From an uncultured cyanobacterium (lineage in GTDB: Bacteria; Cyanobacteriota; Cyanobacteriia; Phormidesmidales; Phormidesmidaceae): a stretch of 64,000 nt of DNA. The translations under genes and the position numbers were made by a program. Shown here one piece after another: positions 1 to 64,000 of the stretch. The DNA lies in assembly GCA_963793265.1 (NCBI GenBank), contig CAWBZI010000001.1, positions 1,216,001-1,280,000 of the forward strand, read 5' to 3'. Numbering within the stretch: position 1 is the stretch's first letter; every line of letters begins with the position of its first letter. The notes under the pieces are model-generated. The model searched no databases. It saw only the letters and a program-made list of their open reading frames with translations, and was not told where the DNA came from.

Positions 1-395
1 CTAATCAGCGTTTTATCTGCCGACAGCAAATTAGCCTCATGTTGGCCATCAGGACGAGCTTGAGGCGGCTGCACCTTGAGAATAATGTCAGCGCTATCCC
101 ACAGATCAACCGTCTTCACAATCTCGCAGCCTGCCGCCTTGTAAGCAGCATCGCTGAACTTCGCGTTCTCGCCTGCTGAGCGCTCGACCAAAACATCAAA
201 GCCAAGCTTTTGCAGCTTCTTAACCGTATCGGGAGTGGCCGCTACTCTGCGTTCGCCGGGTGCAATTTCTTTGGGAATGCCAATTTTTTTAGCCAACTTT
301 GGCTCAGACTTTGGTTCAGCAGAACCTTCCGCTTGGAGAGTTGCTACCGGGGCAACTTCCTTTTTAGCAGCGTCCTTTTCAATCGAAAGGGTCAT
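1..395 (-). CDS. pntA: NAD(P) transhydrogenase subunit alpha, 5' part (runs off window)
   Basis: Manual translation from ATG 395: ...KIGIPKEIAPGERRVAATPDTVKKLQKLGFDVLVERSAGENAKFSDAAY..., the PntA N-terminal motif. Absent from the ORF track because it is truncated. Confidence 0.92.
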   Translation of the reverse strand, partial: MTLSIEKDAAKKEVAPVATLQAEGSAEPKSEPKLAKKIGIPKEIAPGERRVAATPDTVKKLQKLGFDVLVERSAGENAKFSDAAYKAAGCEIVKTVDLWDSADIILKVQPPQARPDGQHEANLLSADKTLI

Positions 396-739
396 AGCGT
401 CTCCGAGTTCTAGATAAATATGCAGGCGTTAGAACGCAGACTAAATAGTGGCAGAAGAGAAATACACATCGGTGGCACTACTCACAAAGATTGATGTCTG
501 TTAGCAAAAGTTTTTGAAGGGTTTGTAGGGGTTCATATTTAGGGGCGCTTGGTTGGCAGGTTGCGCGATCGCCTTCATGCAATTCAAAAACCGTCCACTT
601 CCCTATATGACCGCTGTTCTCGCAGTGTTAGACGTAATATAAGAAAAGCGTCGCATTCCAAAGCTGCTGCGCTTAACTTCATGAAGTAACATCACATTCT
701 GTTTAAAGCCACATTTTTTGTTTGAGGAGTCGTAGCGAA

Positions 740-1336
740 ATGTCTGCAAAGCGTTCTAGTCTATTTTCAATTTCAGGGCGTTTACTATCAGGTCTATTCC
801 TGTCAGGCGCGGCGATCGCCACCACTATCGCCGTTGTGCCCACCGCCCCCGGCATCGCTCAAACCAACCAGGGCATCACCCTCTTCGGCGGCGTCGATTC
901 CGAATATCGCCTGCCCTACACCCTGCGCAACAACCGCCCGCGTAGCACCAACGCGCTCTACTACCTGCGCGTCCCTGGCACCCGCATGGATCGCGCTGCC
1001 TCTAAGCTTCGCATCACCTACCCCGAAGCCTTCACCAACCGCCGAGGCTCTTTTGACACCGACAGCATCGAAGTTCGCCGGGGCCGAGGCACGGGCGGCA
1101 GCGAAATCGCTGTAGAAGAAGTCACCTGGGATGCAGACTCTAGCCAAATCGAAATCTTCCTAGCCGAAGATATCCCCGCTGACACCAGCTTTGTCGTCTA
1201 CATGAGCAACATCCGCAACCCCAACCGCTTTGGGATGCACCGCTTTAACCTCCAGGCCGAAGCACGCGGCGACGTACTGCCTCGCTACCTGGGCACTTGG
1301 GAACTGCTAGTTGCAGAAGACAGGGGTAACCGCTAA
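740..1336 (+). CDS. DUF2808-type secreted protein
   Basis: Signal-like N-terminus, GITLFGGV and NP..FG...FN motifs; usual position upstream of rpmH in cyanobacteria. ATG 740 preferred over TTG 722. Confidence 0.75.
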   Translation: MSAKRSSLFSISGRLLSGLFLSGAAIATTIAVVPTAPGIAQTNQGITLFGGVDSEYRLPYTLRNNRPRSTNALYYLRVPGTRMDRAASKLRITYPEAFTNRRGSFDTDSIEVRRGRGTGGSEIAVEEVTWDADSSQIEIFLAEDIPADTSFVVYMSNIRNPNRFGMHRFNLQAEARGDVLPRYLGTWELLVAEDRGNR

Positions 1337-1386
1337 TATAATAGACCCAACAAAGCCAGCAGACCGCAGCCAGGAGACATTAAGTC

Positions 1387-1530
1387 ATGACGAAGCGTAC
1401 CTTAGGCGGAACTTCCCGCAAGCGCAAAAGAGTATCTGGATTCCGTGCCAGAATGCGTACTAAAAATGGCCGTAACGTCATTAAGGCGCGTCGTAGCAAA
1501 GGTCGCGCTCGTCTTTCAGTCAGTGGCTAA
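1387..1530 (+). CDS. rpmH: 50S ribosomal protein L34 (47 aa)
   Basis: Manual translation [52 protein letters not shown] upstream; precedes rnpA. Confidence 0.98.
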
Positions 1531-1532
1531 CG

Positions 1533-1991
1533 GTGGCCCTTGCTAAGCAGAACCGGCTGGGGTCATCTCGTGATTTTGGCAAGGTTCATCGCAAAGGCGC
1601 TAGAGCTGCAACCGAACATCTGGCAGTCAGAGCGCTAGCTTTTAGACCGACAGTCAGAGTAGAAGATCATAAAAAACGCCTGAGCGCAGAGGGAAAACCG
1701 TCTGCGCTTTCGTGTGATTCAGCGCGTGATTCTAACGAGGATTCGGCACCCCAAGCCAAACCCGCCACTAAATTTGGCATTTCTATCAGCCGAAAAGTTA
1801 GCAAAAAAGCGGTCGTTCGCAATCGCATCAAACGGCAGATAAAAGCCATTATTCGGCAGATGCTGCCCGATGTTCAGCCCGGTTGGCAGGTCGTTATTGT
1901 CGTCCGTACCTGCGCGGTAGAGTGCGAATTTGACGACTTTTTGCGAGAATTAGAATACCTGTTAAAAAAACTAAAGATCGTATCGAGGTAA
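1533..1991 (+). CDS. rnpA: Ribonuclease P protein component
   Basis: FGISISRKVSKKAVVRNRIKR (RNR motif); synteny with rpmH and yidC. Confidence 0.96.
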   Translation: MALAKQNRLGSSRDFGKVHRKGARAATEHLAVRALAFRPTVRVEDHKKRLSAEGKPSALSCDSARDSNEDSAPQAKPATKFGISISRKVSKKAVVRNRIKRQIKAIIRQMLPDVQPGWQVVIVVRTCAVECEFDDFLRELEYLLKKLKIVSR

Positions 1992-1994
1992 TCC

Positions 1995-2390
1995 ATGGCT
2001 ATTAAAGAAGACGTTTACTACGAGGGTGGCCCCCACATTGGCGAGCTAATCTTCAACATAGCGCTGGCTTTTACCATCATTTGCATTCCGCTCACCGTCG
2101 GCGCAATCGTGCGGGCGCTGTGGCTACGCTACCGAATTACGAGCCGCCGCATTTCGATTACGGGGGGCTGGATGGGACGCGATCGCACAGACATCATCTA
2201 CTCAGAAATCGCTAAAATTGTCACAGTGCCTAGAGGCTTAGGCGCATGGGGCGATATGGTCGTCACCCTCAAAGACGGTAGCCGCATCGAAATGCGCGCC
2301 GTGCCTAACTTTAGAGACGTATTCGACTATGTAACCGACAAGATTTCGCCTCAGGCCAAAGTCGCGAGCGGCGCAGTCGGCGTTTCGTAA
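1995..2390 (+). CDS. Bacterial PH-domain membrane protein
   Basis: YYEGGPH, a TM segment, LRYRITSRRI; conserved cyanobacterial gene between rnpA and yidC. Confidence 0.8.
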   Translation: MAIKEDVYYEGGPHIGELIFNIALAFTIICIPLTVGAIVRALWLRYRITSRRISITGGWMGRDRTDIIYSEIAKIVTVPRGLGAWGDMVVTLKDGSRIEMRAVPNFRDVFDYVTDKISPQAKVASGAVGVS

Positions 2391-3944: not shown

Positions 3945-4448
3945 ATGGAAAAGAGCATTAGCTGGTTAGAGGAACTATTGACGCTTCAAGGGCTCAAAGC
4001 CAGCGTAAGTGGGAATCAGAAAACTGAAGCCGAAGGCGACGATAGCTACTGGCTCACTATCGATACCGCCAATTTATCTGAGGCTGAAGTAGAAGGGCTG
4101 ATTGGCGATCGCGGCACTGTCTTAGACTCCATTCAATACCTCGCCAACATCACCCTCAACATGGGCAAAGGCGAAGACGAACAGCAAGCCTACACCATCG
4201 AAATCAACGGCTACCGCGAAAAGCGTCAGGCCGAACTCAAAGAAATCGCTCAAAACGCCGCTGATCAGGTGATTGAAAGCGGTAAAGAATACGAAATCAA
4301 GGGCCTCTCTGCCGCCGAGCGTCGCCATCTACACGGCATACTAGGCGAAAATGAAGCGCTAGAAACCTTTAGCAGAGGCCGTGAGCCTGAGCGTCATTTA
4401 GTCGTTAAGAAGGCAGGCGCAACCGAAGAAACCGACGCTGAAGAATAG
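3945..4448 (+). CDS. jag: Jag/KhpB RNA-binding protein (KH + R3H)
   Basis: LIGDRGTVLDSIQYL (KH), AERRHLH (R3H), SRGREPERHLVV. Confidence 0.9.
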   Translation: MEKSISWLEELLTLQGLKASVSGNQKTEAEGDDSYWLTIDTANLSEAEVEGLIGDRGTVLDSIQYLANITLNMGKGEDEQQAYTIEINGYREKRQAELKEIAQNAADQVIESGKEYEIKGLSAAERRHLHGILGENEALETFSRGREPERHLVVKKAGATEETDAEE

Positions 4449-7466: not shown

Positions 7467-10400
7467 ATGGCTACAACATCCGATACTTTTGTCAGTGAAG
7501 TTCTTCAGCTCACTAACCAGTTTCGTGCAGAAAATGGCCTAGCGCCCCTAACCGCCAACTCAGAACTTGACCAAACAGCTCAAAGCTATTCTGAGACGAT
7601 GGCCAAAGGAGACTTTTTTGACCATACCGGCAAGGATGGATCAAAGCCCTGGGATAGAGCCGAAAAGGAAGGCTATACTGCCCGCGCGATGGGAGAGAAT
7701 ATTGCGGCGGGTCAGCGATCGCCTCAATCTGTCGTCGATGGCTGGATCAACAGCCCAGGGCACCGCGCCAACCTGCTCAACCCCAGCTACACAGAGCTAG
7801 GCGTTGGCTACTTCAACCTAGAAAACGACACCGGCAGCGTCAACTACAACACATACTGGACACAGCTATTCGGCAGCGGTGACCTCACGCCCAGCGCCAC
7901 CAATCCACCAAACTCTCCTGAGGTGCTCACCCCTACAGCCGAACCAGCACCCGTTGCAGCCGAACTGCCAACTGAAAAGGAAGATCCGGTTAAGACTTCA
8001 CCTGAAGAAGTTCCAGAGACACCCGAAGAACCAGCACCCCTTCCTGAACCTGCCGCGGAAGCACCTGCTGAGCCAATGGCTGAAGCGCCCGCTGAACCTG
8101 CTGCTGAACCAACGGTTGAAACACCTACTGAACCAGTAGCTGAAACGCCAGCAGCCGAACCTATGGCTGAAACACCCACTGAACCAGTAGCCGAGACACC
8201 AGCAGCCGAACCTGCTACAGATAACCCTATGGGTGAGAGCCCTATGGATGCAGGCAATATGGATGATATGGACATGGGCGAGATGCCTCACTCCAAAGAC
8301 CATATGGCGCTCGAAAATCTTATCGACACCTTAGCGCCCACCCATATCGCGGCCAAGAGCGGTGCGTGGTCTGATCCGACGACCTGGCAAAACGGCACGG
8401 TACCCGGCAACGGAGCCAAAGTGCTCATTTCAGAAGGGGCAACCGTCACCTACGATCAAATCAGCGACGATCGAATCAACACTATTGCGATCGAGGGAAA
8501 TCTTAGGTTCGCGGCGGGCAAAGACACCCAGCTCTACGTTGAAACGATTCTCAATGCTCCAGAAGGTAAGCTAGATATTGGTTCTGAAAGCCAGGCGATC
8601 GCAGCCGACAAGAACGCAAGGATTATCTTTACCAGCAACAACACTGTCAACACCCAATGGGATCCTACCCAGCTCAGCAAAGGGCTAGTCAGCCATGGTG
8701 AAGTCAATATCTACGGCGCAGACAAACTCGACAAAGCTGTCCTAGCTGGTGATGCCCAAGCTGGCAACAACGTTCTCACCTTTCAATCCGATCTCACAGG
8801 CTGGCAAGTCGGTGACCAAATCGTCTTAGCCGGTACCGACAACACCTGGAACGGTACCGATGCCGACAACTCCAGACTGCAAGACGAAGTACTTACTATT
8901 ACCGACATCAGCGGCAAAGAGATCCGTTTTGAGAACAAGGACATCACCGAAGGCGACAACACCGTTCTTAGGTTCGACCACACGACCAGCAATAGAGCCG
9001 ACCCAGGAGAGCTAAATCTCTATGCCGCAAACCTAACTCGCAACGTCAGTTTTGAAACCGAAAACGGCAAAGACGTGCCCATCAATCAGCGCGCCCACGT
9101 GATGCTGATGCACAATCCCAACGTAAATGTTCTCAATGCAGGTTTTTACGACTTAGGCCGCTCCGACAAGTCCAAGATTGTTGATGACATTGGTGAAAAC
9201 GTTGACGGGTCTAAGGGCAACGGCACCAACATTCGCGGTCGCTACTCTTTGCACCTCCACAAAACCGGCGTCGATGATGTCAATGGCGAAGCGTCTATCC
9301 TAAAAGGCAACGTGGTTTCGGGCTCGCCAGGGTGGGGGATTGTGCAGCACCAAAGCCATGCCGGACTCGAAGACAATACTGTTTTTGATACGGTCGGCGC
9401 AGGCATTGTGGCCGAATCAGGCAATGAAATCGGCTGGTGGACTGACAACTTTGTGGTAAAGACCACAGGTATGGGTTGGGAAAAGGCCCGAGATCAAAGA
9501 GATAATCGTGAGAACAAGTTCGACTTAGGCTTTGAGGGCGATGCCTACTGGGTTCAGGGCGCAGCTCAAGTCAAGAACAGAGACAACAAAGCGGCCAGCT
9601 CCAACCGGGCTGGTATGGTACTTTTTGGCAGCGCACTAGACACTAAAGACACCTTTAGAGAAGTCACCACCATTCCAGTTAAAAACCTGCCTAAAGAACT
9701 ACAGGGGCTCTGGACAGAAGAACAAACCGAGGCCGATATCCGCGATGTGCCCATGGCGACAGTAAGCGGCTTCGAGAGCTATAACGCTGACTTTGGTCTA
9801 AGAGTATGGGGCCATAACACCAACTTTGACGGCGAAGGCGCATTCAGTACGCCGACTAAAGAAGGCGAGCCTAAGGTTGCGCACACAGGGCGATCGCTCA
9901 TTGAAGACTTTAAGCTATGGGGCAATCGCTGGAGCGGAGCCCAGGTTTTCTATAGCAGCAACGTCGATCTTAAAGACGGGCTCGTACTCGGCAGAGAAAC
10001 CACGCCCTATATTGAAGGCGCTGGCGGACAGGGCTTGCTCAGCAACCATGCCACCTTCAATTCTACCTACGACAATCTCACCATCGCGGGCTACGAACAG
10101 GGCGCTCAAATCGAGTACCCTAACACCGATAAAGACTTTATCGGCGTCACCCTCAAAAACAGCACCTTTAATGACAATGTTTATGCCTTAGGAAAAGTTG
10201 GCGACGACGGTATCAAAGAAGGCAGGCCAGATGACTTTGGTAGCTTTATCAAGCTGCAAAACAACACGTTTGAATCCTCAGATGAAACCACAGCAAACAA
10301 CCGTGCACCAGTTGCAAGGTTTCGGAGCAAAGCCGCTGGCGGACTCGCCATTGAATTAGACGCCAGCGCTTCTTCAGATCCCGATCCGCTGCAAGCTGAA

Positions 10401-12032: not shown

Positions 12033-12067
12033 GTAGCTGAGCGTAAATAGCTTTTCGAGCTTCTAGC

Positions 12068-12118
12068 GGCCTGTATCTCTTTTCTATGGGGGGGAGAAAT
12101 GCAGGTCGTTTTCTTTTT
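12068..12118 (+). terminator. Probable intrinsic terminator
   Basis: GCCTGTATCTCT...AGAAATGCAGGT imperfect stem followed by a T-rich run. Confidence 0.5.
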
Positions 12119-12169
12119 ACGGTTCGGCAAAGACCTATCATTTTAGAAAGTGCATTGTTGGGGGTCGCT

Positions 12170-13699
12170 ATGACGAGTTTTCGTGAAGAGCTGAGTTTAC
12201 TGGTGCGATCGCGCTACCCTCTCATCTACATCCCCACCCGCGAAGAAGAACGCGCCGAAGTCGGCATTGCCCAGTGCGCTCAAGATATTGGCGATCGCAC
12301 CGTCTACACCTGGGACTACGTAGACGGCTACCAGGGCAACCCCACCGACAGCGGCTTCGGCAAGCGTAACCCGCTTCAAGCCCTAGAACTCATCGAAAAA
12401 GTCCCATCCTCAGCCGCCGCCCTTTTCGTTCTACGCGACTACCACCGCTTTTTAGACGACATTGCCATCTCTCGCAAGCTCCGCAATCTCCTCAAGCTGC
12501 TCAAATCCCAGCCCAAAAACGTCATCATTCTCTCTGCTACCCTCGCCATTCCAGACGAACTCAGCAGCAGCATCACCGTTCTAGAATTTCCCCTGCCTGA
12601 TAAGGCCGAAATTCGTACCGAAGTCGAAAAGATTCTCAGCGTCACCGGCTCCACCCTCTCTGCGCGCGACACCGACGAACTCGTTCGCTCCTGTCAGGGT
12701 CTTGCCCTAGAGCGCATCCGCCGAGTTCTTGCGCGTGGTATCGCCGCCCATGGCACCTTCGAGCCCGACGATATTGATCTGATTCTCGAAGAAAAACGGC
12801 AGACCATTCGCCAAACGCAGATTCTAGAGTTCTACCCCGCTGCCGAAAAGATCTCGGATATTGGCGGACTCGATAATCTCAAAGACTGGCTGCTCAAGCG
12901 CGGCGGTGCCTTTTCAGAGAAAGCTCGGCAGTATGGGCTACCGCACCCGCGCGGGCTCATGCTAGTGGGGATTCAAGGCACTGGAAAGTCACTGACTGCA
13001 AAGGCGATCGCCCACCACTGGCACCTCCCGCTTCTCCGCCTGGATGTCGGCAGACTCTTCGGCGGCCTCGTGGGCGAATCCGAATCGCGCACCCGCCAGA
13101 TGATCCAGCTTGCCGAAGCCCTTGCCCCCTGCATCCTCTGGATCGACGAAATCGACAAAGCCTTTGCGGGTTTCGATGGCGGCGGCGATTCCGGCACCAC
13201 CAGCCGCGTATTTGGCACCTTCATCACCTGGCTTGCCGAAAAATCCTCTCCTGTCTTCGTCGTTGCCACGGCTAACAACATCCAATCGCTCCCTCCCGAA
13301 ATGCTTCGCCGGGGCCGCTTCGATGAAATCTTCTTCGTCGGCCTCCCCAGCCAGCCCGAGCGCGAAGCCATCTTCAACGTCCACCTCGCGCGCTTGCGCC
13401 CGCACAACCTGCCCGCCTACGATCTCAAGCGCCTCGCCTACGAAACCCCCGACTTCTCTGGCGCAGAAATAGAGCAGGCCCTAATCGAAGCCATGCACAT
13501 TGGCTTCAGCCAAAACCGTGACTTCACCCACGACGACGTACTCGAAGCCGTCAGCCAGATCATCCCGCTTGCCCGCACTGCCCAAGAGCAAATCGAAGCC
13601 CTCCAGAACTGGGCCGCATCCGGCAAAGCCCGTCTCGCCTCTCGCCAAACCCCACTTTCTGAACGCATCGAACAGCAGCGAAAAGCTGATAGTCCCTAG
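12170..13699 (+). CDS. ycf46: Ycf46-family AAA+ ATPase
   Basis: [13 protein letters not shown], Walker A GIQGTGKS, Walker [25 protein letters not shown] 12170. Confidence 0.88.
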
Positions 13700-13797
13700 C
13701 TTCTAACGCCTCAGCCATCCTAACTTCCAGCCAGCGCCTTTACCTGTCGCACTCTTCACGCTATAACCATAAGGCTCTTGCTATCCAGCGCTGCGCC

Positions 13798-15852: not shown

Positions 15853-16938
15853 ATGTTAGAAACGGCTTTGAGCCGCCTTGGCAATCCCGAGCTAGAGCTT
15901 GGGCTGGTCATAGCTGTGACAGTTGTGGTGACTGTGATTGCCTCACGATTCATCCCTACACTATTCCGCAGCCTATTCGAGCGCTTGCAAGGCTCAGCTA
16001 CCATCTATGCCGAAGTCATAGAGCCCAATCAAACCCTGCTAGCCACTGCCCTCAGCTTAAGCGCCGCCGATCTACTCATCACAGCATTCTTCGCTAGCAC
16101 CAAAGCCTTCTTGCTAGTAGACATTCCCCTCAGCCTGGCCGTCAGCGGGCTCACTATCTGGCTAATTTTCAGGCTATCCAAACTATTTTTTGACATTTAC
16201 CTGCTTAACGATGCGGTTCGAGAAGGCCGCAAAATCAGCAGCGAAATCCTCACCCTCGGCAAAGTCATCAGCATCGGCGGCGGTGCAATCACCGTCGCCA
16301 TCATCTTCGGCCAAACCCACCAGTTCAACGTTGTCGGCCTTATCGCTAGCTTAGGCGTCGGTGGCCTCGCACTCGCCTTTGCCGCCCAAAAGACCCTAGA
16401 GCAAATCCTTGGCAGCGTCGTTCTCTACATCGATCGCCCCTTCGTCATAGACGACTATATCGGCCTGCCTGACGGCACCTTCGGACAGGTCGAATCGATC
16501 GGTTTGCGTTCTACCAAAATTCGCACCTCCGGCAAAGGTACGCTGGTGATTGTGCCCAACAATATGCTGACGCAGATTACGATTGAGAACTTCACTGGGG
16601 CCAAAAAGGTGATGTCTATTATTTATCTGCGGTTTTATCGGGCGATCGCAAACGACGAAAGAGCCCTCATTCGCCAGGTCATTTTAGAAAGCACCCAAAA
16701 CATATTCGGCATCGACTCGCGCAGCACCGACATCACCTTCATGGAGCCTAACAAAGCCATGGAGACGCGCGCACAGGTTACCTTCTTCATTCTCGGCTCA
16801 GGCGAAGTTTCAATGGACTTACGCGGTCAGCTTCTAGATATCGCCAGCCGCAACGTCGCTCAAAGGCTCAAAGAATTTGGCATTGCCTTCGACATTGAAG
16901 AACAAAGAATTAACGTCGATTCTCCAATCACCATTTAA
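15853..16938 (+). CDS. MscS-family mechanosensitive channel
   Basis: LGVGGLALAFAAQKTL, DRPF, VESIGLRSTKIR, VPN. Confidence 0.92.
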   Translation: MLETALSRLGNPELELGLVIAVTVVVTVIASRFIPTLFRSLFERLQGSATIYAEVIEPNQTLLATALSLSAADLLITAFFASTKAFLLVDIPLSLAVSGLTIWLIFRLSKLFFDIYLLNDAVREGRKISSEILTLGKVISIGGGAITVAIIFGQTHQFNVVGLIASLGVGGLALAFAAQKTLEQILGSVVLYIDRPFVIDDYIGLPDGTFGQVESIGLRSTKIRTSGKGTLVIVPNNMLTQITIENFTGAKKVMSIIYLRFYRAIANDERALIRQVILESTQNIFGIDSRSTDITFMEPNKAMETRAQVTFFILGSGEVSMDLRGQLLDIASRNVAQRLKEFGIAFDIEEQRINVDSPITI

Positions 16939-16981
16939 ACAACACTTTTCACGCAACATACTTCCCGCATCACCACACAGC

Positions 16982-42449: not shown

Positions 42450-43886
<1,437 letters not shown>

Positions 43887-50841: not shown

Positions 50842-51795
50842 ATGTTTAATCGTCTTTTTATCACTGCTGCGATCGCCCTTCCCTTCGTAGCCCTCACCCC
50901 TTTTTCTGCAGCGGCTCAAATACAAATTATTCGCATCAGACAATCAACCTTCGATCGCCCGCTGCTTAGGGGCACGCCGCAGTTTATTGTGTGTGGCTAC
51001 AGTCCTTCTGTTCGCCCTAATCCGCTAGGTCAGCAGGCTTCTATCACGGTGAGCGAAGTTGATGGTAGCAGTACTTTTCGCTACAACGGGCCTGACGGAG
51101 CGCGATCGCTCACGCTACCCGGTACCTCTATTCGGTTCGCTCGCCGTCAGCTCGTTAACAGCCCGGCTCAGTACGCTGCGCTAATCGGGCGATCACTCAA
51201 CGATCCGATTGTTCTAAGAGGGTTTAGCTCAGTTGATAGGCTACTGTCTTGCGAAGATGCAAACGAAAGGAGTGCAGCGAATAATGTTCGCTTTGATGCC
51301 TCTGGTGCAGTTACGAATGCGATTAGAGATACGGCTGGTAGAGGTGTTTTGCGCACCACTGTTTCGACGCGTAGTAGTCGATCCGATGCAGATAGGGTAA
51401 CGACTATAGCGAGCTTGCCCGATGGTAACTACCGCTTTACAACGGCTCGGGCTAGCTCAGGCGGTGGCTCTATTAATGGCGTGCTACAAGATAGCGGCGA
51501 TCGCACGTTCACTTTCCGCAAAGCGGGCGAGTCAGTCACCGGCAACTTTGTTTATGTCGATAGTGGTGAAAGCGCCTGCGTAAGTGGCATTGTGCAAGGC
51601 AACACCGTTGTTGGTCAGGCTGTGAGCAATAGCTTCGGCACAGATGTGTTGGGCCAAAGGTATTTAGGCTCGGGACTGTCTTTGCGACTAGAAGAGAATA
51701 GTGGCAACTTTTACAACAATGCCACCCTCAGCCTCGGCGGATTCTCTCGCATCGATGCAGGTGATGTGCAGCCGCCCGCAAGCTGCCGTTCCTAA
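50842..51795 (+). CDS. Secreted hypothetical protein with paralogous C-domain
   Basis: Signal peptide ending AAA-Q; C-domain starts TIASLPDGNYRF. Confidence 0.75.
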   Translation: MFNRLFITAAIALPFVALTPFSAAAQIQIIRIRQSTFDRPLLRGTPQFIVCGYSPSVRPNPLGQQASITVSEVDGSSTFRYNGPDGARSLTLPGTSIRFARRQLVNSPAQYAALIGRSLNDPIVLRGFSSVDRLLSCEDANERSAANNVRFDASGAVTNAIRDTAGRGVLRTTVSTRSSRSDADRVTTIASLPDGNYRFTTARASSGGGSINGVLQDSGDRTFTFRKAGESVTGNFVYVDSGESACVSGIVQGNTVVGQAVSNSFGTDVLGQRYLGSGLSLRLEENSGNFYNNATLSLGGFSRIDAGDVQPPASCRS

Positions 51796-51803: not shown

Positions 51804-52322
51804 TTAAGCTTCAACAAAGTTCAAGGCAACACCGTTCATACAGTAGCGCTTGCCCGTAGGCTTAGGGCCATCGTTGAACACATGGCCCAGATGTCCGCCG
51901 CAGCTACTACAGTGCACCTCGGTTCGACTCATCATCAGAGAGTTGTCTATTGTGGTTGCGATCGCGCCCTCAATCGGCGCATAAAAGCTGGGCCAGCCGG
52001 TACGACTGTCAAACTTAGTGCTAGAAGAGAATAGCGGTTGGCTACAGCCCGCACAGGTATAAGTGCCTTTTGCTGTTTGCTTATCGAGCGGACTGCTAAA
52101 GGGCCGTTCTGTTTTCTCTTCTCTAAGCACGCCAAACTCTTCTGGCGTTAAAACCTTTCGCCATTCCGCTGGCGTTTTTACAACCTCAAAATTGCCGCTT
52201 GAAGCGGTGGATGTGTCTGCTTGTGAAGCCGTTTTCTCTTTTGCTAGCGAGGGTAGATAGCGAGATAGCGCAACGGCACCGATAGCCACCGCACCTGTTT
52301 GCATAAGATAGCGTTTTTTCAT
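51804..52322 (-). CDS. msrB: Peptide-methionine (R)-S-oxide reductase with export signal
   Basis: CAGC, KFDSRTGWPSF, CSSCGGHLGHVF.DGP, RYCMN. Confidence 0.96.
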   Translation of the reverse strand: MKKRYLMQTGAVAIGAVALSRYLPSLAKEKTASQADTSTASSGNFEVVKTPAEWRKVLTPEEFGVLREEKTERPFSSPLDKQTAKGTYTCAGCSQPLFSSSTKFDSRTGWPSFYAPIEGAIATTIDNSLMMSRTEVHCSSCGGHLGHVFNDGPKPTGKRYCMNGVALNFVEA

Positions 52323-55800: not shown

Positions 55801-56349
55801 CTCGCTATGATGACAAGCCAGCAATCCCCATAGCTGAGCCGATGCCTCAGGGGTCTTTTTTCCGGTAGACGTTTCTTCTAATACGATGGGCACTACCACT
55901 GAAGACTGTACGCCCATGGCAGTGAGATATTCTTTGTGGCACGGATCTAACGGGCGGTAGCGAATGTCTTTGTTTTCTTCAGGGTTGCCGGTTTGAGGGT
56001 TGTCTAGCGGGCTGATGCCGATTTGGGCGCTGTGGGTGTCTACAACTGAGCGCTGTCGTGCTTTTAAGAAAAGTTCGCGAGCATAGGGCGGAATGTCATC
56101 GGCAGGGAAGTTGAGATCTAAAAGTGAAGGTAGGCGATCGCTATCAATCGATTCGGCAATCACCAGACCGCTGCTGTCGGGGTTAAACTGATACACCTTG
56201 ACGCGATCAATCTTTAGATACGCTCGCACCTCTACAACCATCGCATCCAAAATCTCCTGTAGCTCTAGAGACTGACGGATACGGTTAGCAATGCGGTGTA
56301 AAAGACCTTCTTGGTTAACGATTGTGACGGTCGGCTGAGGCGTATTCAT
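52882..56349 (-). CDS. Knotless phytochrome (GAF-PHY) + two cyanobacteriochrome GAFs + histidine kinase
   Basis: GAF1 FPADDIPPYAR and DPCH; PHY WAG..RQSF; two W.DTYLQ..GGRY..CH GAFs; AHEINNP kinase; ATG 56349. Confidence 0.92.
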   Translation of the reverse strand: MNTPQPTVTIVNQEGLLHRIANRIRQSLELQEILDAMVVEVRAYLKIDRVKVYQFNPDSSGLVIAESIDSDRLPSLLDLNFPADDIPPYARELFLKARQRSVVDTHSAQIGISPLDNPQTGNPEENKDIRYRPLDPCHKEYLTAMGVQSSVVVPIVLEETSTGKKTPEASAQLWGLLACHHSESREVTEAELQFIQAVVDQVGIAIAQSVLLNRVRAQAQQEANINRVTKLLYVSPTVQLQAALEEVIETLSGSGGRLYLTGEGELPKEIYTHGAQPNAINQQQRTVEENYLWKNFVHSVVEPSTDSTGYKPWSVEWMRSVYKLPDKRSSSRTKEHFDLWAINDIYREPLLRTIAPFFEPTSARGLLIVPLYYDSQIVGCLSVFREEINTEMMWAGWHNPDSRQLMARQSFEVWREEKTGTAQAWTEEDLSYAKALSERFSTAIKQYRLRQQVQSLNANLEQQVTERTEQLQQKTQQLQLSNAELESAVSKQQALSGIVAKIRESLNIEEIFRITTQELGQLLDSDKVSVYQFNEDWGGEFVSSFEAVSPRWAEVGKFGENTVWNDTYLQDTKGGRYRNGESFVVNDVTQQGFAQCHVDIYNQYKIKSFINVPIFVGQALWGILAVFQQQAVRQWKLADVDFVSQIAAQLGVALQHSTLLTYTQKQARELKTSNTELCRVVDQQRTLSSIVAKIRESLDINQIFKTTTQELTQVLRADRASVYRFNEDWGGEFVAEFESVAVEGIDVGKFGINTVWDDTYLQENQGGRYRDGEISVVNDVYECEFSQCHLEIYEQFKVKAFVLVPIFVEQNLWGLLGIYQHKQPRKWDSSEVDFVQQIAAQLGVAMQHASLAASDKQKNSQLSTALIDLKTTQTQLIQTEKMSSLGQLVAGIAHEINNPINFIHANVGHLKEYSNSLLKLIEGYQQHFPSPPDDIQTLLEEAEIDYLAEDLPKLCTSLSTGTQRIRSIISSLRNFSRLDESEVKAVDLHEGIEGTLLILQHRLRTGSNKVSIEIIKKYGELPLVECHASQINQVFMNLLTNAIDELQSAAPNDDDAVRTLQIKTQRMNDDWVSVSIQDDGNGIPQPVLEKLFDPFFTTKPIGKGTGLGLSISYQIIEKHGGRLFCESVVGEGATFVIELPIKSQVQKELVSTGTD

Positions 56350-61813: not shown

Positions 61814-63397
61814 ATGGGCGTCTCGGATCAGCTTTTACCGACTATTAGCGCATTGGTGGCCCTGGGGGAATTTTCTCAGGGCGATCAGCTTGCCGATGCG
61901 ACTGATGTAAAAACAGTGAGCGATACGCTCTCGGACGAGGCAAAACAGCAGCGGGCTCAAAGAGAATGGCAGGGTGCGATCGCAGCGCTCGGTCAGCTCC
62001 TGACTCAGCAGGTGAGAACCTCAGTTGCTCAAAGAGCATCTAAATCCCAAAAGCATTTCAAGAGATCGGCGCGCAGTAAATTTCCAGAGGCGCTAGTTAT
62101 AGTTGGGCCTGTTCCTTTTTTGAACGAGCCCGCAGTGTCTGCAAAAATCTTTGATCAACTCTCTACCTGGACAATCGTACCGCAATCTTCAGAGCACCTG
62201 GGATCTGCATTTAGTGCGCTTTCTCCGGTGGGCCGATTGTTTCAAAAAAAGTTTAAGCAGCCTTCTTTTCATAATCGCCTACTGCCGCTTTTAGAAGACG
62301 ATCCGCTCGCTCAAGAGCAGTTTGCTTTGGTACTAACGCCTGAGTTCTCGCTGGTGCTGGTGCTGGGCAAAGATGCTGATGATGAGCTGCGCTTTCAGTT
62401 TTCGTTTATGCCGCAGGTGGTGATGTCGGTATGGCGGCTGTTGCGATCGCGCATTCGTCTCACGCGCCCGCAGCAGCTAGAGTTTATCGAGCCGCTGGTT
62501 GAAAAGTTTGCACCCAAAGATCCTCACTATCGAACGGTGAGTCAGTTCAACCGCTGGATGATTGCCTGTCTGCCGCAGTTAGAGGCGCAAGTCGGATCTC
62601 AGCTATCAGCTCAAGGGTCGGCTCAGGCTGTTGTGAGGGCTGAGGATAATCAATCGGCGGCTAAGGCAAATGACTTTTCTGATAGTGAATTGCTCAAAGC
62701 GATGGCGCATGAGATTCGGACGCCGCTGACCACGATTCGGACTTATACGCGATCGCTCCTCAACCGAAAAGACTTAGACGCTAAAGTGATCAAACGTCTA
62801 CAAAGTATTGATCGCGAATGTACGCAACAGATTGACCGCTTTAGCCTAATTTTTAGGGCGGTAGAGCTAGAGGCTGCCAGTCAATCGCCTAAGTCTCCTT
62901 TGAGTGCGATCGCCCTTCACCAAGTCTTCCAAGAAGCCATTCCCCAGTGGCAACAGGCCGCCCTGCGCCGAAATCTCTCTTTAGAAGTCGGCCTGCCCCC
63001 CGAGCTGCCCATGGTCGCCAGCGATCCCACCATGCTCCAACACGTGCTCACGGGATTAGTAGAACTCTTTACCCACAGCGTTTCGCCGGGTAGCCACATT
63101 CAGCTTCACGTCGTAAATGCAGGCGAACAGCTCAAGCTACAGTTCCAGTCGCAAATTGATTCTGATAATTCAAACGCAGCGCCGCCTTGCTCTCCGCCGC
63201 CTTTGCAATCGCTGGGTCATCTGTTGATGTTCCAACCGGACACGGGCGGACTCAGCCTGAACTTAGAGGCCACTAAGAACCTTTTTCACGCGCTAGGCGC
63301 AAAGCTCACCGTCCGCGAACGCTCCAATCAGGGCACCACTTGGACGGTCTTTTTGCCACTAGAAGCGAGCGGCCTTAAATCCTATCCGATTGTTTGA
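61814..63397 (+). CDS. Sensor histidine kinase, Hik2/chloroplast sensor kinase-like
   Basis: DPL..EQF.LVLT..FSLVLVL, AHEIRTPLTTIRT, IDRECTQQIDRF, LMFQPDTG.LSLNL. Confidence 0.8.
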   Translation: MGVSDQLLPTISALVALGEFSQGDQLADATDVKTVSDTLSDEAKQQRAQREWQGAIAALGQLLTQQVRTSVAQRASKSQKHFKRSARSKFPEALVIVGPVPFLNEPAVSAKIFDQLSTWTIVPQSSEHLGSAFSALSPVGRLFQKKFKQPSFHNRLLPLLEDDPLAQEQFALVLTPEFSLVLVLGKDADDELRFQFSFMPQVVMSVWRLLRSRIRLTRPQQLEFIEPLVEKFAPKDPHYRTVSQFNRWMIACLPQLEAQVGSQLSAQGSAQAVVRAEDNQSAAKANDFSDSELLKAMAHEIRTPLTTIRTYTRSLLNRKDLDAKVIKRLQSIDRECTQQIDRFSLIFRAVELEAASQSPKSPLSAIALHQVFQEAIPQWQQAALRRNLSLEVGLPPELPMVASDPTMLQHVLTGLVELFTHSVSPGSHIQLHVVNAGEQLKLQFQSQIDSDNSNAAPPCSPPPLQSLGHLLMFQPDTGGLSLNLEATKNLFHALGAKLTVRERSNQGTTWTVFLPLEASGLKSYPIV

Positions 63398-63436
63398 ATA
63401 AGAGGTTGGGTCGCTGGTATCGGATTTATTGCACTA

Positions 63437-63459
63437 GATGTAAAGCCTTACGTCCCTAC
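63437..63459 (-). repeat. GTAG-family REP-like element
   Basis: Minus strand GTAGGGACGTAAGGCTTTACATC. Confidence 0.55.
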
Positions 63460-63501
63460 CTGTGGTTACTGTGCGGTACCGTCTATAGTTTAAACCCAAA
63501 G

Positions 63502-63534
63502 ATGCCCTCATCTCGCTAAACAAGATGAGGGCAT
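63502..63534. terminator. Stem-loop between the convergent kinase gene and psbD
   Basis: ATGCCCTCATCT-9nt-AGATGAGGGCAT, perfect 12-bp stem. Confidence 0.7.
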
Positions 63535-63557
63535 TTAAGGAATTTTGAATGAATCCC

Positions 63558-63586
63558 GTAGGGGCATAGCAATGCTATGCCCCTAC
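63558..63586. repeat. Perfect GTAG-family REP-like palindrome
   Basis: GTAGGGGCATAGCA-A-TGCTATGCCCCTAC, 14-bp arms, 13 nt after the psbD stop. Confidence 0.85.
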
Positions 63587-63599
63587 CGTCAGGCACGAT

Positions 63600-64000
63600 T
63601 TACAGCGCGTTACCACGAGGAAGAACTTCCTCAGGGAACACAAACTGCTCATGTGGCTGATCCTGTGGGCTCAACCACGCACGGATGCCTTCGTTCAATA
63701 GAATGTTCTTCGTGTAGAACGTCTCGAACTCTGGGTCTTCCGCTGCGCGAATCTCTTGGCTCACGAAGTCATACGCTCGTAGGTTCAATGCCAAACCGAC
63801 GATGCCGACTGAACTCATCCATAGGCCCGTAACGGGTACGAACAGCATGAAGAAGTGCAGCCAGCGCTTGTTGCTGAACGCGATACCGAAAATCTGTGAC
63901 CAGAATCGGTTCGCTGTCACCATCGAATACGTCTCTTCTGACTGCGTAGGCTCAAAAGCGCGGAACGTGTTGGCGTTGTCATCGTCCTGGAACAACGTGT
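63600..64000 (-). CDS. psbD: Photosystem II D2 protein, 3' part
   Basis: [53 protein letters not shown]. Confidence 0.99.

What the first reader, a model, noticed from the sequence alone, without database searches (positions are those of the whole stretch)
1..64000. Local G/C skew flips polarity at HIP1 sites: candidate HIP1-anchored strand-asymmetric repair or mutation system
Seen: on the + strand, sequence leading into GCGATCGC is G/T-rich and sequence leaving it is C/A-rich. The switch falls at the octamer, mid-gene, in genes on either strand. Hand counts: site 17537 (+ gene) has G26/C13 in 76 nt upstream and G13/C35 in 76 nt downstream. Site 26963 (- gene) has G38/C12 in 82 nt upstream and G13/C29 in 82 nt downstream. 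Site 34454 (+ gene) has G19/C7 at 34381-34440 and G4/C24 at 34501-34560. The same flip is visible by eye at 812, 4105, 12205, 13004, 16642, 20117, 22695, 33887, 40797, 48266, 56134 and 62443, fading over a few hundred nt. These examples were chosen by eye, so selection bias is possible. The pattern is dyad-symmetric like the palindrome, so neither replichore skew nor coding-strand bias explains it. Known: HIP1 contains GATC/CGATCG methylation targets, its function is unresolved, and methyl-directed repair has been proposed. Inference: a process entering at HIP1 (nicking plus directional excision and resynthesis, or transient single-strand exposure) biases substitutions on each side. I do not know of this being described but cannot check the literature.
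Basis: partly seen in the sequence, partly recalled or inferred. Interest (0 to 1): 0.9.

Follow-up and report, generated by a model that had tools for sequence, protein, structure and literature searches.

The report
G-to-C strand flip at HIP1
In this cyanobacterium every copy of the abundant palindrome GCGATCGC sits at a switch from G-rich to C-rich DNA written mainly into silent codon positions, a footprint that points to a one-directional DNA repair or recombination step starting at this long-unexplained word.

Summary
66 of 73 HIP1 sites in the window and 83% of 6,887 in the genome flip from G>C to C>G.

The flip is specific to the full octamer; GATC-only, CGATCG-only, 7-of-8 sites, other palindromes and all other hexamers give nothing comparable. 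It is strongest at fourfold-degenerate sites (skew ±0.63 next to the site) and independent of gene strand. It crosses gene boundaries and follows HIP1 presence or absence at orthologous positions in a sister species.

One additive law of the distances to the two flanking HIP1 sites fits it, with decay lengths about 70 nt and 1.1 kb (r = 0.995). The base hierarchy on each strand's 5' flank is G > A≈T > C. That fits unequal handling of G·T/G·G versus A·C/C·C mispairs, not cytosine deamination. Substitution rate is flat with distance.

The same polarity occurs in 120 of 122 HIP1-rich genomes of other families, usually 3-4 times weaker.

Best reading: HIP1 anchors a strand-polar (5'→3') gap and mismatch-resolution process. 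This is inferred, not shown. Five literature searches found no description. This scan reported the same phenomenon earlier, on this genome and on others.

The parts
1..64000 (.). Whole window: 73 HIP1 (GCGATCGC) sites, each the centre of a G-rich (5') to C-rich (3') switch. Between consecutive sites the + strand skew at fourfold sites runs as a sawtooth from about -0.5 to +0.5.
   Evidence: 66 of 73 sites have D>0; the window meta-profile matches the genome profile
17537..17544 (.).
   Evidence: G26/C13 upstream, G13/C35 downstream over 76 nt; G-C +17 / -25 over 5-100 nt
26963..26970 (.).
   Evidence: G38/C12 upstream, G13/C29 downstream over 82 nt; +28 / -19; Pfam
34454..34461 (.).
   Evidence: G19/C7 at 34381-34440, G4/C24 at 34501-34560; +18 / -24
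812..819 (.).
   Evidence: G-C +4 upstream, -21 downstream (5-100 nt)
4105..4112 (.).
   Evidence: +8 / -15
12205..12212 (.).
   Evidence: +12 / -14
13004..13011 (.).
   Evidence: +6 / -10
16642..16649 (.).
   Evidence: +7 / -13
20117..20124 (.).
   Evidence: +3 / -14
22695..22702 (.).
   Evidence: +4 / -22
33887..33894 (.).
   Evidence: +3 / -32
40797..40804 (.).
   Evidence: 0 / -26
48266..48273 (.).
   Evidence: +24 / -12
56134..56141 (.).
   Evidence: +16 / -11
62443..62450 (.).
   Evidence: +18 / -4
9890..9897 (.). Exception: HIP1 site without the flip (D<=0)
   Evidence: +4 / +8
39126..39133 (.). Exception: HIP1 site without the flip, inside the S-adenosylhomocysteine hydrolase gene (38027-39568, - strand)
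   Evidence: -5 / -3; Pfam
40392..40399 (.). Exception: HIP1 site without the flip
   Evidence: -11 / -10
42245..42252 (.). Exception: HIP1 site without the flip, just upstream of rbcL
   Evidence: -8 / -8
42934..42941 (.). Exception: HIP1 site without the flip, inside rbcL (42456-43886, + strand)
   Evidence: -5 / +2; Pfam
51497..51504 (.). Exception: HIP1 site without the flip
   Evidence: +3 / +6
51958..51965 (.). Exception: HIP1 site without the flip
   Evidence: -3 / +6

Best explanation
HIP1 is the anchor of a strand-polar DNA transaction. One strand is opened at the palindrome and removed or replaced in the 5'->3' direction. Most tracts are tens of nt long, with a tail of about 1 kb. 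On either side of the site, the strand that runs 5'->HIP1 therefore stays intact and serves as the template.

Mismatches inside that tract are then resolved in favour of the intact strand whenever they are detected. They arise in heteroduplex formed with another chromosome copy or with incoming DNA. G-containing mispairs (G·T, G·G, G·A) are detected better than their complementary counterparts (A·C, C·C, C·T). The intact strand therefore keeps its G (and T) and loses its C (and A).

The result is a strand-polar biased gene conversion. Over evolutionary time it writes G > A≈T > C into the 5' flank of every HIP1 on both strands.

Shown: the anchor, the symmetry, the DNA-level nature, the additive distance law, the base hierarchy, the coupling to HIP1 gain and loss, the flat substitution rate and the phylogenetic spread.

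Inferred: the nick, the 5'->3' polarity (it rests on the textbook hierarchy of mismatch recognition by MutS-type repair, recalled and not tested here), the heteroduplex source and the enzymes (MutS, MutL, RecJ and an unknown HIP1-specific nuclease).
For: - Anchor specificity. Only the full octamer shows the step. GATC-only sites (n=8,892), CGATCG-only (n=484), 7-of-8 half sites (n=733) and about 25 other palindromes give |D|<=3.4 against 12.1. In a scan of all 4,096 hexamers only HIP1 sub-words stand out. After masking HIP1, only its m5C-deamination products GTGATC/GATCAC do. The decayed sites GTGATCGC and GCGATCAC (n=350 and 414) keep about 75% of the skew on both arms.
- DNA-level, not protein or mRNA. 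Skew at fourfold sites is the same for + and - genes. It continues into neighbouring genes on the same strand (+0.23 at 60-100 nt) or the opposite strand (+0.22), against +0.225 in the same gene. There is no extended consensus and no hairpin complementarity (10.14 matches of 40 observed, 10.31 with shuffled partners).
- Coupling to HIP1. At orthologous positions in 225 kb aligned to sister species G004, G000-only sites (n=82) are skewed in G000 (+0.17 at 10-30 nt) and flat in G004 (+0.03). G004-only sites (n=85) are the converse. Shared sites (n=166) are skewed in both.
- Processive-tract shape. logit(G/(G+C)) = f(d to downstream HIP1) - f(d from upstream HIP1), with f = 1.09 exp(-d/71) + 0.43 exp(-d/1099), r = 0.995. 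The sawtooth appears in every spacing class. Isolated arms stay skewed to about 800 nt.
- Base hierarchy. At fourfold sites G goes 0.29->0.43-0.48 and C 0.28->0.11-0.16, with A and T flat. At twofold sites G is favoured over A by +0.48 to +0.50 log-odds and T over C by +0.48 to +0.64. These sum to about the fourfold G/C shift of roughly 0.9. The same hierarchy is seen in G004 and in an unrelated family (G192).
- Redistributive, not mutagenic. Composition-corrected identity at fourfold sites to five sister species is flat with distance from shared HIP1 sites (0.193, 0.197, 0.187, 0.171, 0.206, 0.188, 0.199, 0.203). A fixation-type bias predicts 0.21, minimal added mutagenesis <=0.14 and pure extra protection >=0.26.
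- Amplitude varies about 4-fold among lineages carrying the same repair genes. MutS_I, MutL_C, RecJ_OB and ExoVII_L are in 5 of 5 genomes; MutH, Vsr and ExoI in 0 of 5. That is easier for a parameter depending on recombination rate and population size than for fixed enzymology.
- Literature. Homologous HIP1 sites raise integration in PCC 7002 independently of AddAB; the authors suggest a Chi-like role through RecFOR or MutS/L (abstract and discussion read). Elhai proposed HIP1-directed repair with about 1 kb reach.
Against: - No nick, gap, heteroduplex or enzyme was observed. Everything rests on composition.
- The 5'->3' polarity follows only if G-containing mispairs are the better-recognised ones. 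With the opposite preference the polarity would invert.
- The skew in DNA my crude gene model calls intergenic is 3-4 times weaker than at fourfold sites (+0.12 against +0.44 at 10-30 nt). A pure DNA-level bias does not predict this. I can only suggest faster indel turnover or other constraints.
- The rate test is crude: synonymous sites are about 80% saturated, with se about 0.018.
- 7-of-8 sites show no skew. That fits their being young chance occurrences, but says nothing on what is recognised.
- The positional test on strain variants that could have shown a fixation bias could not be done, because only 40 of 377 variant rows were returned.
- ExoVII, which in E. coli can degrade from either end (recalled), is present in 5 of 5 genomes. 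Gene content does not enforce one-way excision.
- G021's own iterated palindrome GGGATCCC (501 sites) shows no skew. Not every iterated palindrome behaves this way.
Confidence: 0.4

Rival explanations
1. Same geometry, but the mismatches are replication errors. This is Elhai-type methyl-directed post-replicative repair. Hemimethylated HIP1 marks the new strand and excision runs only 5'->3' from the nick. Errors on a nascent strand are therefore corrected 3' of a HIP1 but not 5' of it. Uncorrected nascent strands gain G (G·T and G·G mispairs form more often than A·C and C·C). The skew would then be a mutational equilibrium.
For: - Same anchor, symmetry, additive distance law and base hierarchy as the best explanation.
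- The long component (1.1 kb) matches the ~1 kb reach that Elhai took from E. coli methyl-directed repair.
- MutS1 and MutL are present, and MutH is absent as in all cyanobacteria (PMC5101192 passages).
- m5C-deamination variants of HIP1 are the commonest decay products, consistent with the sites being methylated.
Against: - With correction probability falling with distance, this model predicts a 15-20% lower substitution rate next to HIP1 than at mid-interval (my own arithmetic, no call). The corresponding excess identity would be about 0.25-0.26. Observed is 0.197 ± 0.018, equal to the far value.
- A mutational equilibrium should not vary 4-fold among lineages with the same gene set.
- No HIP1-specific nickase is known.
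- Close-strain differences are 83-88% transitions with only 1-5% C<->G. A large purine/pyrimidine shift has to be built from a rare mutation class.
Confidence: 0.22
2. HIP1 is a frequent break or nick site. 5'->3' resection leaves each strand's 5' flank single-stranded. Damage on that strand or error-prone gap filling then adds C>N and A>N changes, as described around human meiotic break hotspots.
For: - The geometry and the affected bases match. Hinch et al. 2023 (PMC7615360, passages read) report C>N and A>N on the strand left single-stranded, mirrored across the break, over about 2 kb.
- Here the 5'-arm strand loses C and converts A to G.
- RecJ is present in 5 of 5 genomes.
Against: - Added mutagenesis strong enough to give the observed composition needs at least an 18-21% higher substitution rate at 10-20 nt. 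That predicts excess identity <=0.14; observed is 0.197 ± 0.018, about 3 se away.
- Simple C deamination would raise T and lower G+C. T is flat and G+C rises by 0.01-0.04.
- Bacteria lack the Rev1-type C-inserting polymerase invoked for C>G (recalled, not tested).
Confidence: 0.12
3. Selection on the flanks. HIP1 works (as uptake signal, protein-binding site or structural element) only or better with a G-rich 5' and C-rich 3' context, and selection maintains that context.
For: - HIP1 sites are conserved by selection (Xu et al. 2018, abstract and passages).
- Methylated HIP1 boosts transformation (PMC13756078 introduction and discussion).
- The equilibrium fits a 'potential' model, which selection also gives.
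- The skew is weaker where other constraints act: codon positions 1 and 2, intergenic DNA, and rbcL/ahcY.
Against: - The effect reaches single silent sites 400-800 nt away and adds linearly from two neighbours. Selection per site would be vanishingly small.
- There is no positional motif and no pairing between arms.
- It shifts amino-acid usage by 15-30% for several residues, which looks like a cost and not a design.
- The amplitude is near zero in some HIP1-rich lineages (families f6 and f5), where HIP1 is equally abundant.
Confidence: 0.08
4. Reverse causality or artefact. HIP1 arises or survives preferentially at pre-existing G-to-C switch points, or the pattern is a by-product of coding sequence, assembly or repeated elements.
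For: Composition alone cannot order events. Synonymous sites between the compared species are about 80% saturated, so an ancestral switch could have decayed in the lineage lacking HIP1.
Against: - Away from HIP1 no word and no region shows such switches.
- Random positions give mean D 0.09, sd 10.9. HIP1 would have to arise only in the top ~15% of positions and never regress.
- The kb-long tail, the additive two-neighbour law and the sawtooth are not properties of chance fluctuations.
- The flanks are ordinary orthologous coding DNA without indels.
- The pattern is seen in about 170 genomes of the order and in 120 of 122 HIP1-rich genomes of other families, and on all 7 contigs.
Confidence: 0.03

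Closest known systems
Elhai's hypothetical G-mC (HIP1)-directed mismatch repair (Life 2015, PMC4390886; section 3.4 read)
   Same: It names HIP1 as the strand-discrimination site for MutS/MutL repair through an unknown MutH analogue. The predicted reach is about 1 kb and the predicted saturation density about one site per kb. The footprint here has a 1.1 kb component and a mean spacing of 822 nt.
   Different: The model was built to explain HIP1 abundance. It predicts no flank skew and no one-way excision; the paper has 0 occurrences of 'skew' or 'asymmetr'. The flat substitution rate fits a conversion bias better than error correction. 7-mer G-mC sites, which the model treats as active, show no skew.
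Methyl-directed mismatch repair of E. coli (Dam, MutH, MutS, MutL)
   Same: A short methylated palindrome directs a nick. Excision runs from the nick over up to about a kb. MutS recognises G·T and G·G well and C·C poorly (textbook knowledge, recalled).
   Different: MutH is absent (0 of 5 genomes; all cyanobacteria per PMC5101192). E. coli excision works in both directions, and I know of no skew around GATC. GATC-only sites here show none.
Strand-asymmetric mutation around human meiotic double-strand-break hotspots (Hinch et al. 2023, PMC7615360; passages read)
   Same: A defined initiation site, 5'->3' resection, and mirror-image strand asymmetry over 1-2 kb. C>N and A>N fall on the strand left single-stranded.
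   Different: There the process is mutagenic (8-fold). Here the substitution rate is flat. That system is eukaryotic and uses PRDM9/SPO11, and it was seen in de novo mutations, not as an equilibrium composition.
Replication-associated GC skew (sign change at origin and terminus)
   Same: G>C on one strand with a small T>A, and a sign change at a defined point. The HIP1 polarity is that of a terminus (G-rich then C-rich).
   Different: Two switches per chromosome against 6,884 here. The HIP1 step is independent of regional skew. Amplitude at silent sites is ±0.6, far above usual replication skews (the latter recalled).
GC-biased gene conversion
   Same: A fixation bias from unequal mismatch resolution in heteroduplex. 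It gives an equilibrium of the 'potential' type without a rise in rate.
   Different: gBGC favours G and C alike on both strands and raises G+C. Here G is favoured and C disfavoured on one strand, mirrored across a site. G+C moves only 0.57->0.58-0.61.
Chi sites and DNA uptake sequences
   Same: Over-represented short words that act in recombination or transformation with a polarity. HIP1 raises integration in PCC 7002.
   Different: Chi and most uptake sequences are not palindromic. The AddAB deletion did not remove the HIP1 effect. I found no flank skew described for them in the searches made.

Membership tests
Methyl-directed mismatch repair (Dam/MutH type) | MutS (mismatch-binding domain I) and MutL present | tested here: met
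   PF01624 in 5 of 5 genomes, PF08676 in 5 of 5. The G000 MutL ORF of 586 aa carries CPHGRP; the exact DQHA motif was not found (both motifs recalled).
Methyl-directed mismatch repair (Dam/MutH type) | MutH-family nicking endonuclease | tested here: not met
   PF02976 in 0 of 5 genomes while the E. coli control rings. Absent in all cyanobacteria per PMC5101192.
Methyl-directed mismatch repair (Dam/MutH type) | Action anchored on the methylated GATC word | tested here: not met
   GATC outside CGATCG (n=8,892) has D = -0.9, against +12.1 for HIP1.
Methyl-directed mismatch repair (Dam/MutH type) | Hemimethylation-dependent nick on the new strand | not testable with these tools
   Needs methylome and nick mapping.
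Elhai's HIP1/G-mC-directed repair (hypothesis) | Effect centred on HIP1 with about 1 kb reach | tested here: met
   Decay components of 71 nt and 1,099 nt. Isolated arms stay skewed to about 800 nt.
Elhai's HIP1/G-mC-directed repair (hypothesis) | 7-mer G-mC sites (GCGATCG or CGATCGC) also active | tested here: inconclusive
   No skew at 733 half sites, but these may be too young to have built one.
Elhai's HIP1/G-mC-directed repair (hypothesis) | CGATCG m5C methyltransferase present and HIP1 methylated | not tested
   Only indirect: GTGATCGC and GCGATCAC are the most numerous one-off variants (350 and 414), as m5C deamination would give.
Very-short-patch repair (Vsr) | Vsr endonuclease; patch of about 10 nt | tested here: not met
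   PF03852 in 0 of 5 genomes. The footprint reaches hundreds of nt. The patch length is recalled.
Chi/RecBCD-AddAB recombination hotspot | Non-palindromic word read by RecBCD/AddAB from one side | tested here: not met
   HIP1 is a palindrome. recBCD is mostly confined to marine picocyanobacteria. The AddAB deletion keeps the HIP1 effect in PCC 7002. RecBCD/AddAB genes were not searched for in G000.
Replication-associated GC skew | Chromosome-scale domains switching at origin and terminus | tested here: not met
   Sign switches at 6,884 sites. The step is the same in regions of positive and negative 40-kb skew.
GC-biased gene conversion | Strand-symmetric weak-to-strong bias raising G+C | tested here: not met
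   G up and C down on the same strand; G+C only 0.57->0.58-0.61.
GC-biased gene conversion | Fixation bias (not mutation bias) | tested here: inconclusive
   The flat rate fits it. The frequency-spectrum test was not possible.
Break-and-resection mutagenesis (meiotic-hotspot type) | Raised mutation rate in the resected flanks | tested here: not met
   Excess identity 0.193-0.197 near the site against 0.19-0.20 far from it. The additive model predicts <=0.14. The test is crude.

The most novel reading that the evidence does not exclude
Cyanobacteria possess an undescribed strand-discrimination and entry system. A HIP1-specific nuclease, still unidentified, opens one strand at the methylated palindrome. 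A one-way (5'->3') gap follows, and mismatch resolution in that gap is biased. HIP1 would then be the long-sought 'MutH site' or recombination entry site of the phylum. Its by-product is a drive strong enough to set codon choice genome-wide and to shift amino-acid usage. The strength of the drive would be a readable, per-lineage measure of how often the system fires.
Probability: 0.4. Interest if true: 0.92.

Novelty: new variant of a known kind. Interest (0 to 1): 0.85.

Why it matters
HIP1 has been known since 1993 and its function is still called elusive in October 2026 (PMC13756078 introduction). The footprint gives the first genome-internal evidence that something acts at HIP1 with a direction, a reach and a base preference. 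It turns rival ideas (mismatch repair, Chi-like recombination, uptake signal) into quantitative, testable predictions.

Practically, in this genome the position of the two nearest HIP1 sites predicts G-versus-C choice at silent sites with r = 0.995 on binned data. It also measurably shifts protein composition. HIP1 is therefore a hidden variable for codon-usage, GC-skew, horizontal-transfer and selection analyses in cyanobacteria. Synonymous recoding in engineered strains may be acted on by the same process.

The lineage-specific amplitude offers a natural experiment for finding the responsible genes.

Tried and rejected
- Hairpin or cruciform idea. In-register complementarity of the two flanks is not above that of shuffled partners (10.14 against 10.31 of 40). 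Rejected.
- Extended motif or repeat element. There is no positional consensus beyond the octamer. Rejected.
- mRNA-level cause. I considered it because in gene coordinates the pattern is the same for all genes. It is rejected because the skew continues into neighbouring genes on the opposite strand.
- First skew proxy (G/C at in-phase positions). It discriminated poorly (ratio 1.49 in G000) and was replaced by the no-C/no-G run proxy.
- My interim conclusion after that the skew is absent outside the genus was wrong. Whole-genome counts show the same polarity, weaker, almost everywhere.
- Polarised substitution spectra from relatives. Same-genus species are only 72-78% identical and silent sites are about 80% saturated. 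At equilibrium such counts would only restate the composition. Not pursued.
- Presence or absence of repair genes as an explanation of amplitude. There is no difference between 3 strong and 2 weak genomes for 7 families.
- Strain variants from public runs. Four runs hold close relatives, but the laying returned 40 of 377 variant positions. The test of skew-eroding against skew-building variants could not be made. Only the totals by kind were used. No habitat or source is inferred.
- Searching the MutL ORF for the endonuclease motif. Exact DQHA was not found and CPHGRP was found. Left open.
- Supplements of the papers cited were not opened. They may hold per-genome tables, but nothing in the main texts searched points to flank composition.

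Full report
**What was checked first.** The window is G000:C1:1216001-1280000 of a 5.68-Mb, 7-contig genome with 51% G+C. It holds 73 copies of GCGATCGC against 2.16 expected from dinucleotide-preserving shuffles; the genome holds 6,884.

I scored D = (G-C) at 5-100 nt upstream minus the same downstream. In the window 66 of 73 sites have D>0, 50 have D>=10 and 7 have D<=0; p = 1.5e-14 against the 47.9% of random positions.

**Genome-wide profile and controls.** Averaged over 6,878 sites, the + strand GC skew is +0.36 (0-5 nt), +0.18 (10-20), +0.11 (40-60), +0.06 (80-100), +0.04 (100-150) and about 0 by 300-400 nt. Downstream is a mirror image. The T-A skew has the same sign but is only 0.03-0.08.

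83.3% of 6,887 sites have D>0 (mean +12.1). Random positions give mean 0.09 and sd 10.9. The controls were:
- GATC outside CGATCG (n=8,892): -0.9.
- CGATCG outside HIP1 (n=484): -0.4.
- 7-of-8 half sites (n=733): +0.45.
- About 25 other palindromes: between -3.4 and +2.3.

In a scan of all 4,096 hexamers the top words are HIP1 sub-words (CGATCG 10.4, z=72). After masking ±250 nt around HIP1 the top are GATCAC (3.1) and GTGATC (2.6), and nothing else exceeds |3|. Among the 24 one-letter variants only GTGATCGC (n=350) and GCGATCAC (n=414) keep the skew on both arms (+4.5/+4.3 and +3.7/+5.1, against +5.7/+6.4 for HIP1). These are what deamination of a methylated first C of CGATCG would give, and they are the most numerous variants.

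**Anatomy.** There is no extended consensus, only diffuse G (0.30-0.35) upstream and C downstream, with a 3-nt period. The two flanks are not complementary in register (10.14 matches of 40 against 10.31 with shuffled partners).

I built a crude ORF-based gene model (4,482 genes, 84.5% coding). With it, the skew on each strand's 5' arm at fourfold-degenerate sites is:

| distance (nt) | 1-10 | 10-20 | 20-30 | 30-45 | 45-60 | 60-80 | 80-100 | 100-150 | 150-200 |
|---|---|---|---|---|---|---|---|---|---|
| skew | +0.63 | +0.47 | +0.41 | +0.36 | +0.29 | +0.24 | +0.21 | +0.14 | +0.09 |

At 10-20 nt, codon positions 1 and 2 show only +0.09 and +0.06, and DNA called intergenic +0.12. The values are the same for genes on either strand. 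The weak intergenic signal is not explained.

**It is a DNA-level effect.** Fourfold sites in a different gene from the one holding the HIP1 show the same skew at the same distance. At 60-100 nt it is +0.225 in the same gene, +0.230 in a neighbour on the same strand and +0.218 in a neighbour on the opposite strand. At 100-150 nt the values are +0.141, +0.148 and +0.167. The step is the same in regions of positive or negative 40-kb skew and on all 7 contigs.

**Distance law.** Arms with no other HIP1 within 1.5 kb (2,072 arms) are skewed +0.53 (10-30 nt), +0.34 (60-100), +0.21 (150-200), +0.12 (400-600) and +0.06 (600-800). Between consecutive sites the + strand fourfold skew runs from about -0.5 to +0.5 and crosses zero near the midpoint in every spacing class from 100-300 to 3,000-8,000 nt.

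A table of skew by distance to the downstream site and distance from the upstream site is antisymmetric. It is fitted by logit(G/(G+C)) = -0.07 + f(d5) - f(d3), with f(d) = 1.09·exp(-d/71 nt) + 0.43·exp(-d/1,099 nt). The weighted residual is 0.020 and r = 0.995.

**Base hierarchy.** On the 5'-arm strand at fourfold sites, A/C/G/T go from 0.214/0.277/0.293/0.216 (500-1,000 nt) to 0.196/0.156/0.427/0.221 (10-20 nt). G replaces C, A and T stay, and the purine fraction rises from 0.507 to 0.623, which transitions alone cannot do.

At twofold sites, where only transitions are silent, G/(G+A) rises from 0.537 to 0.656 (sense) and from 0.495 to 0.613 (antisense). C/(C+T) falls from 0.479 to 0.326 and from 0.521 to 0.403. 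In log-odds these are +0.50, +0.48, -0.64 and -0.48, with the same decay. The two steps add up to about the fourfold G/C shift of roughly 0.9.

So the rule is G > A≈T > C on the strand running 5'->HIP1. This is what unequal formation or recognition of G·T versus A·C and G·G versus C·C mispairs would give if that strand is the one kept.

**Coupling to HIP1 in evolution.** Same-genus species are only 72-78% identical. In 225 kb of G004 aligned to G000 (203 segments, 73.2% identity), 22 sites were dropped for gaps. The rest gave the following:

| class | n | skew in G000 (10-30 / 30-60 nt) | skew in G004 (10-30 / 30-60 nt) |
|---|---|---|---|
| octamer is HIP1 in both | 166 | +0.23 / +0.155 | +0.205 / +0.12 |
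| HIP1 in G000 only | 82 | +0.17 / +0.14 | +0.03 / +0.03 |
| HIP1 in G004 only | 85 | +0.08 / +0.05 | +0.15 / +0.10 |

In the G004-only class, 11 of the 85 G000 octamers are the deamination variants. The skew therefore belongs to the site, not to the gene or protein.

**Rate.** I took 56,877 fourfold sites aligned between G000 and five same-genus samples, requiring identical first two codon bases. Composition-corrected excess identity near shared HIP1 sites is 0.193 (1-10 nt), 0.197 (10-30), 0.187, 0.171, 0.206, 0.188, 0.199 and 0.203 (400-2,000). It is flat, with se about 0.018.

A linear-programming bound shows that added mutagenesis must raise the rate by at least 18-21% at 10-20 nt, which predicts <=0.14. 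Pure removal of mutations lowers it to 0.78-0.81, predicting >=0.26. A fixation-type bias gives 0.94, predicting 0.21. The data favour a redistributive bias, but the test is crude.

**Spread.** A proxy counts 12-nt runs without C against runs without G at 21-32 nt from HIP1 on both strands. Its expectation is 1, and the ratio is about exp(8 × skew). It was calibrated.

In the whole order (one family, 173 genomes, 19 genera) every genus is above 1. The window's genus has 2.84 pooled (46 genomes, range 1.92-4.34; G000 is 3.88). Four other genera have 2.2-2.7, and the lowest has 1.26.

In a class-wide draw, 122 of 184 genomes of other families are HIP1-rich enough to score. Of those, 120 have ratio > 1 and 86 have z > 3. 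The median is 1.41 (skew about 0.04). The highest family is f21 (3.16 and 2.66). The lowest are f6 (0.96, 1.13) and f5 (16 genomes, 1.05-1.28) (counts re-typed by hand).

Direct profiles agree:
- Five same-genus samples: +0.10 to +0.21 at 10-30 nt.
- G020, G023, G026 and G029: 0 to +0.04.
- G021, around its own palindrome GGGATCCC (501 sites): none.

G192 of family f21 replicates the hierarchy. Fourfold G goes 0.337->0.486 and C 0.352->0.220, with A and T flat. Twofold G/(G+A) goes 0.418->0.536 and C/(C+T) 0.431->0.312. Its range is shorter.

RbcL places the organism next to a Phormidesmis sp. MAG (97% amino-acid identity) and to Nodosilinea and Leptolyngbya-like records. In named loci the polarity is seen in Nostocales (211 sites), Microcoleus-type (124), Pseudanabaena (99) and Pleurocapsales-type (83) groups at +0.01 to +0.06 beyond 10 nt. 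In the Phormidesmis locus it is +0.15/+0.14/+0.07.

**Consequences for proteins.** In the 12 codons on the N-terminal side of HIP1 compared with the 12 on the C-terminal side (5,877 sites):

| residue | Val | Glu | Gly | Thr | Ile | Pro | Asn |
|---|---|---|---|---|---|---|---|
| N-terminal side (%) | 8.12 | 6.83 | 7.88 | 5.13 | 5.21 | 4.39 | 3.03 |
| C-terminal side (%) | 6.25 | 5.46 | 6.63 | 6.78 | 6.44 | 5.39 | 3.85 |

**Genes.** In three strong genomes (G000, G192, G065) and two weak ones (G023, G022), MutS domain I, MutL C-terminal domain, RecJ and ExoVII large subunit are found in 5 of 5. MutH, Vsr and ExoI are found in 0 of 5, with positive controls ringing. Gene content thus allows MutS/MutL/RecJ-based processing but does not explain the amplitude.

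**Mechanism.** The geometry that fits is a tract starting at HIP1 and running 5'->3' on each strand. The strand 5' of the site is then the intact template on both sides. I commit to a strand-polar biased gene conversion: a nick at HIP1, a RecJ-type gap, pairing of the intact strand with a strand from another chromosome copy or incoming DNA, restoration of detected mismatches to the intact strand, and conversion at undetected ones. My confidence is 0.4.

The reasons are the flat rate, the additive 'potential' form, the 4-fold variation of amplitude among lineages with the same genes, and the experimental finding that homologous HIP1 sites raise integration in PCC 7002 without AddAB (abstract and discussion read).

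The rivals are:
- The replication-error version of the same geometry, Elhai's model plus one-way excision (0.22).
- A mutagenic break-and-resection process like that at human meiotic hotspots, Hinch et al. 2023, passages read (0.12).
- Selection on flanks (0.08).
- Reverse causality or artefact (0.03).

No nick, tract or enzyme has been seen.

**Known or new.** The searches were:
- HIP1 + 'highly iterated palindrome' + skew (4 papers, none on flanks).
- HIP1 + cyanobacteria + GCGATCGC + flanking.
- cyanobacteria / palindrome / GC skew / mismatch repair / methylation.
- GCGATCGC + asymmetr.
- HIP1 / synonymous / codon / strand bias.

Term searches inside Xu et al. 2018, Elhai 2015 and Rodriguez-Cruz et al. 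2026 gave 0 relevant hits for skew or asymmetry. I found no description in that library. Subscription-only papers are not covered.

This scan's own earlier notes report the same phenomenon on this genome (e1-7817684, e1-7687214) and on other genomes (e1-6388260, e1-6402111, e1-5185068, e1-5240060). I treated them as leads. One of them gave me the Hinch et al. comparison.

Noticed in passing
window 38027-39568 (ahcY, -), 42456-43886 (rbcL, +) and HIP1 sites 39126, 40392, 42245, 42934: Four of the 7 HIP1 sites in the window that lack the flip lie in or beside rbcL and the S-adenosylhomocysteine hydrolase gene. These genes are usually highly expressed with strong codon bias. Translational selection of comparable strength may override the HIP1 bias there.
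   Followed up: no
window 14524-14531 and 14533-14540: Two HIP1 copies separated by a single base (a tandem pair).
   Followed up: no
genome-wide; The HIP1-centred skew is 3-4 times weaker in DNA my crude gene model calls intergenic (+0.12 at 10-30 nt) than at fourfold sites (+0.44). Yet fourfold sites next to intergenic HIP1 copies are skewed nearly normally. I have no explanation.
   Followed up: partly
G021 (family f4), L031-L050: This genome has almost no HIP1 (10 in 400 kb) but 502 copies of GGGATCCC. No G/C skew surrounds that palindrome.
   Followed up: partly
genus g24 of the same family (G096, G101, G104, G110, G121, G124, G132): Seven of 53 genomes of one genus give almost no pattern matches (0-24 against 100-400 in their relatives). 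This suggests recent loss of HIP1 within a genus.
   Followed up: no
L134 (record titled as a Rhizobium sp. MAG): A contig filed under a Rhizobium MAG carries a cyanobacterial-type rbcL (92% identical to the window's) and 29 HIP1 sites in 21 kb. It is probably a mis-binned cyanobacterial contig.
   Followed up: no
window 11000-30999, runs X1-X4: Close relatives of this organism occur in public metagenomes of two studies. Their differences from the window are 83-88% transitions and only 1-5% C<->G changes. A cluster of small insertions lies at 27760-27765.
   Followed up: partly
window 19671-20337: Summed contig depth spikes here in all four runs, and many contigs break at 20117-20164. The stretch matched many paralogous and foreign loci, so it is probably a widely conserved domain drawing contigs of other organisms, not a feature of HIP1.
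   Followed up: no
G192 (family f21), L213-L232: In the other strongly skewed lineage the skew is as strong near the site but is gone by about 150 nt; the long (kb) component is missing or cancelled. HIP1 density there is 1.42 per kb.
   Followed up: partly
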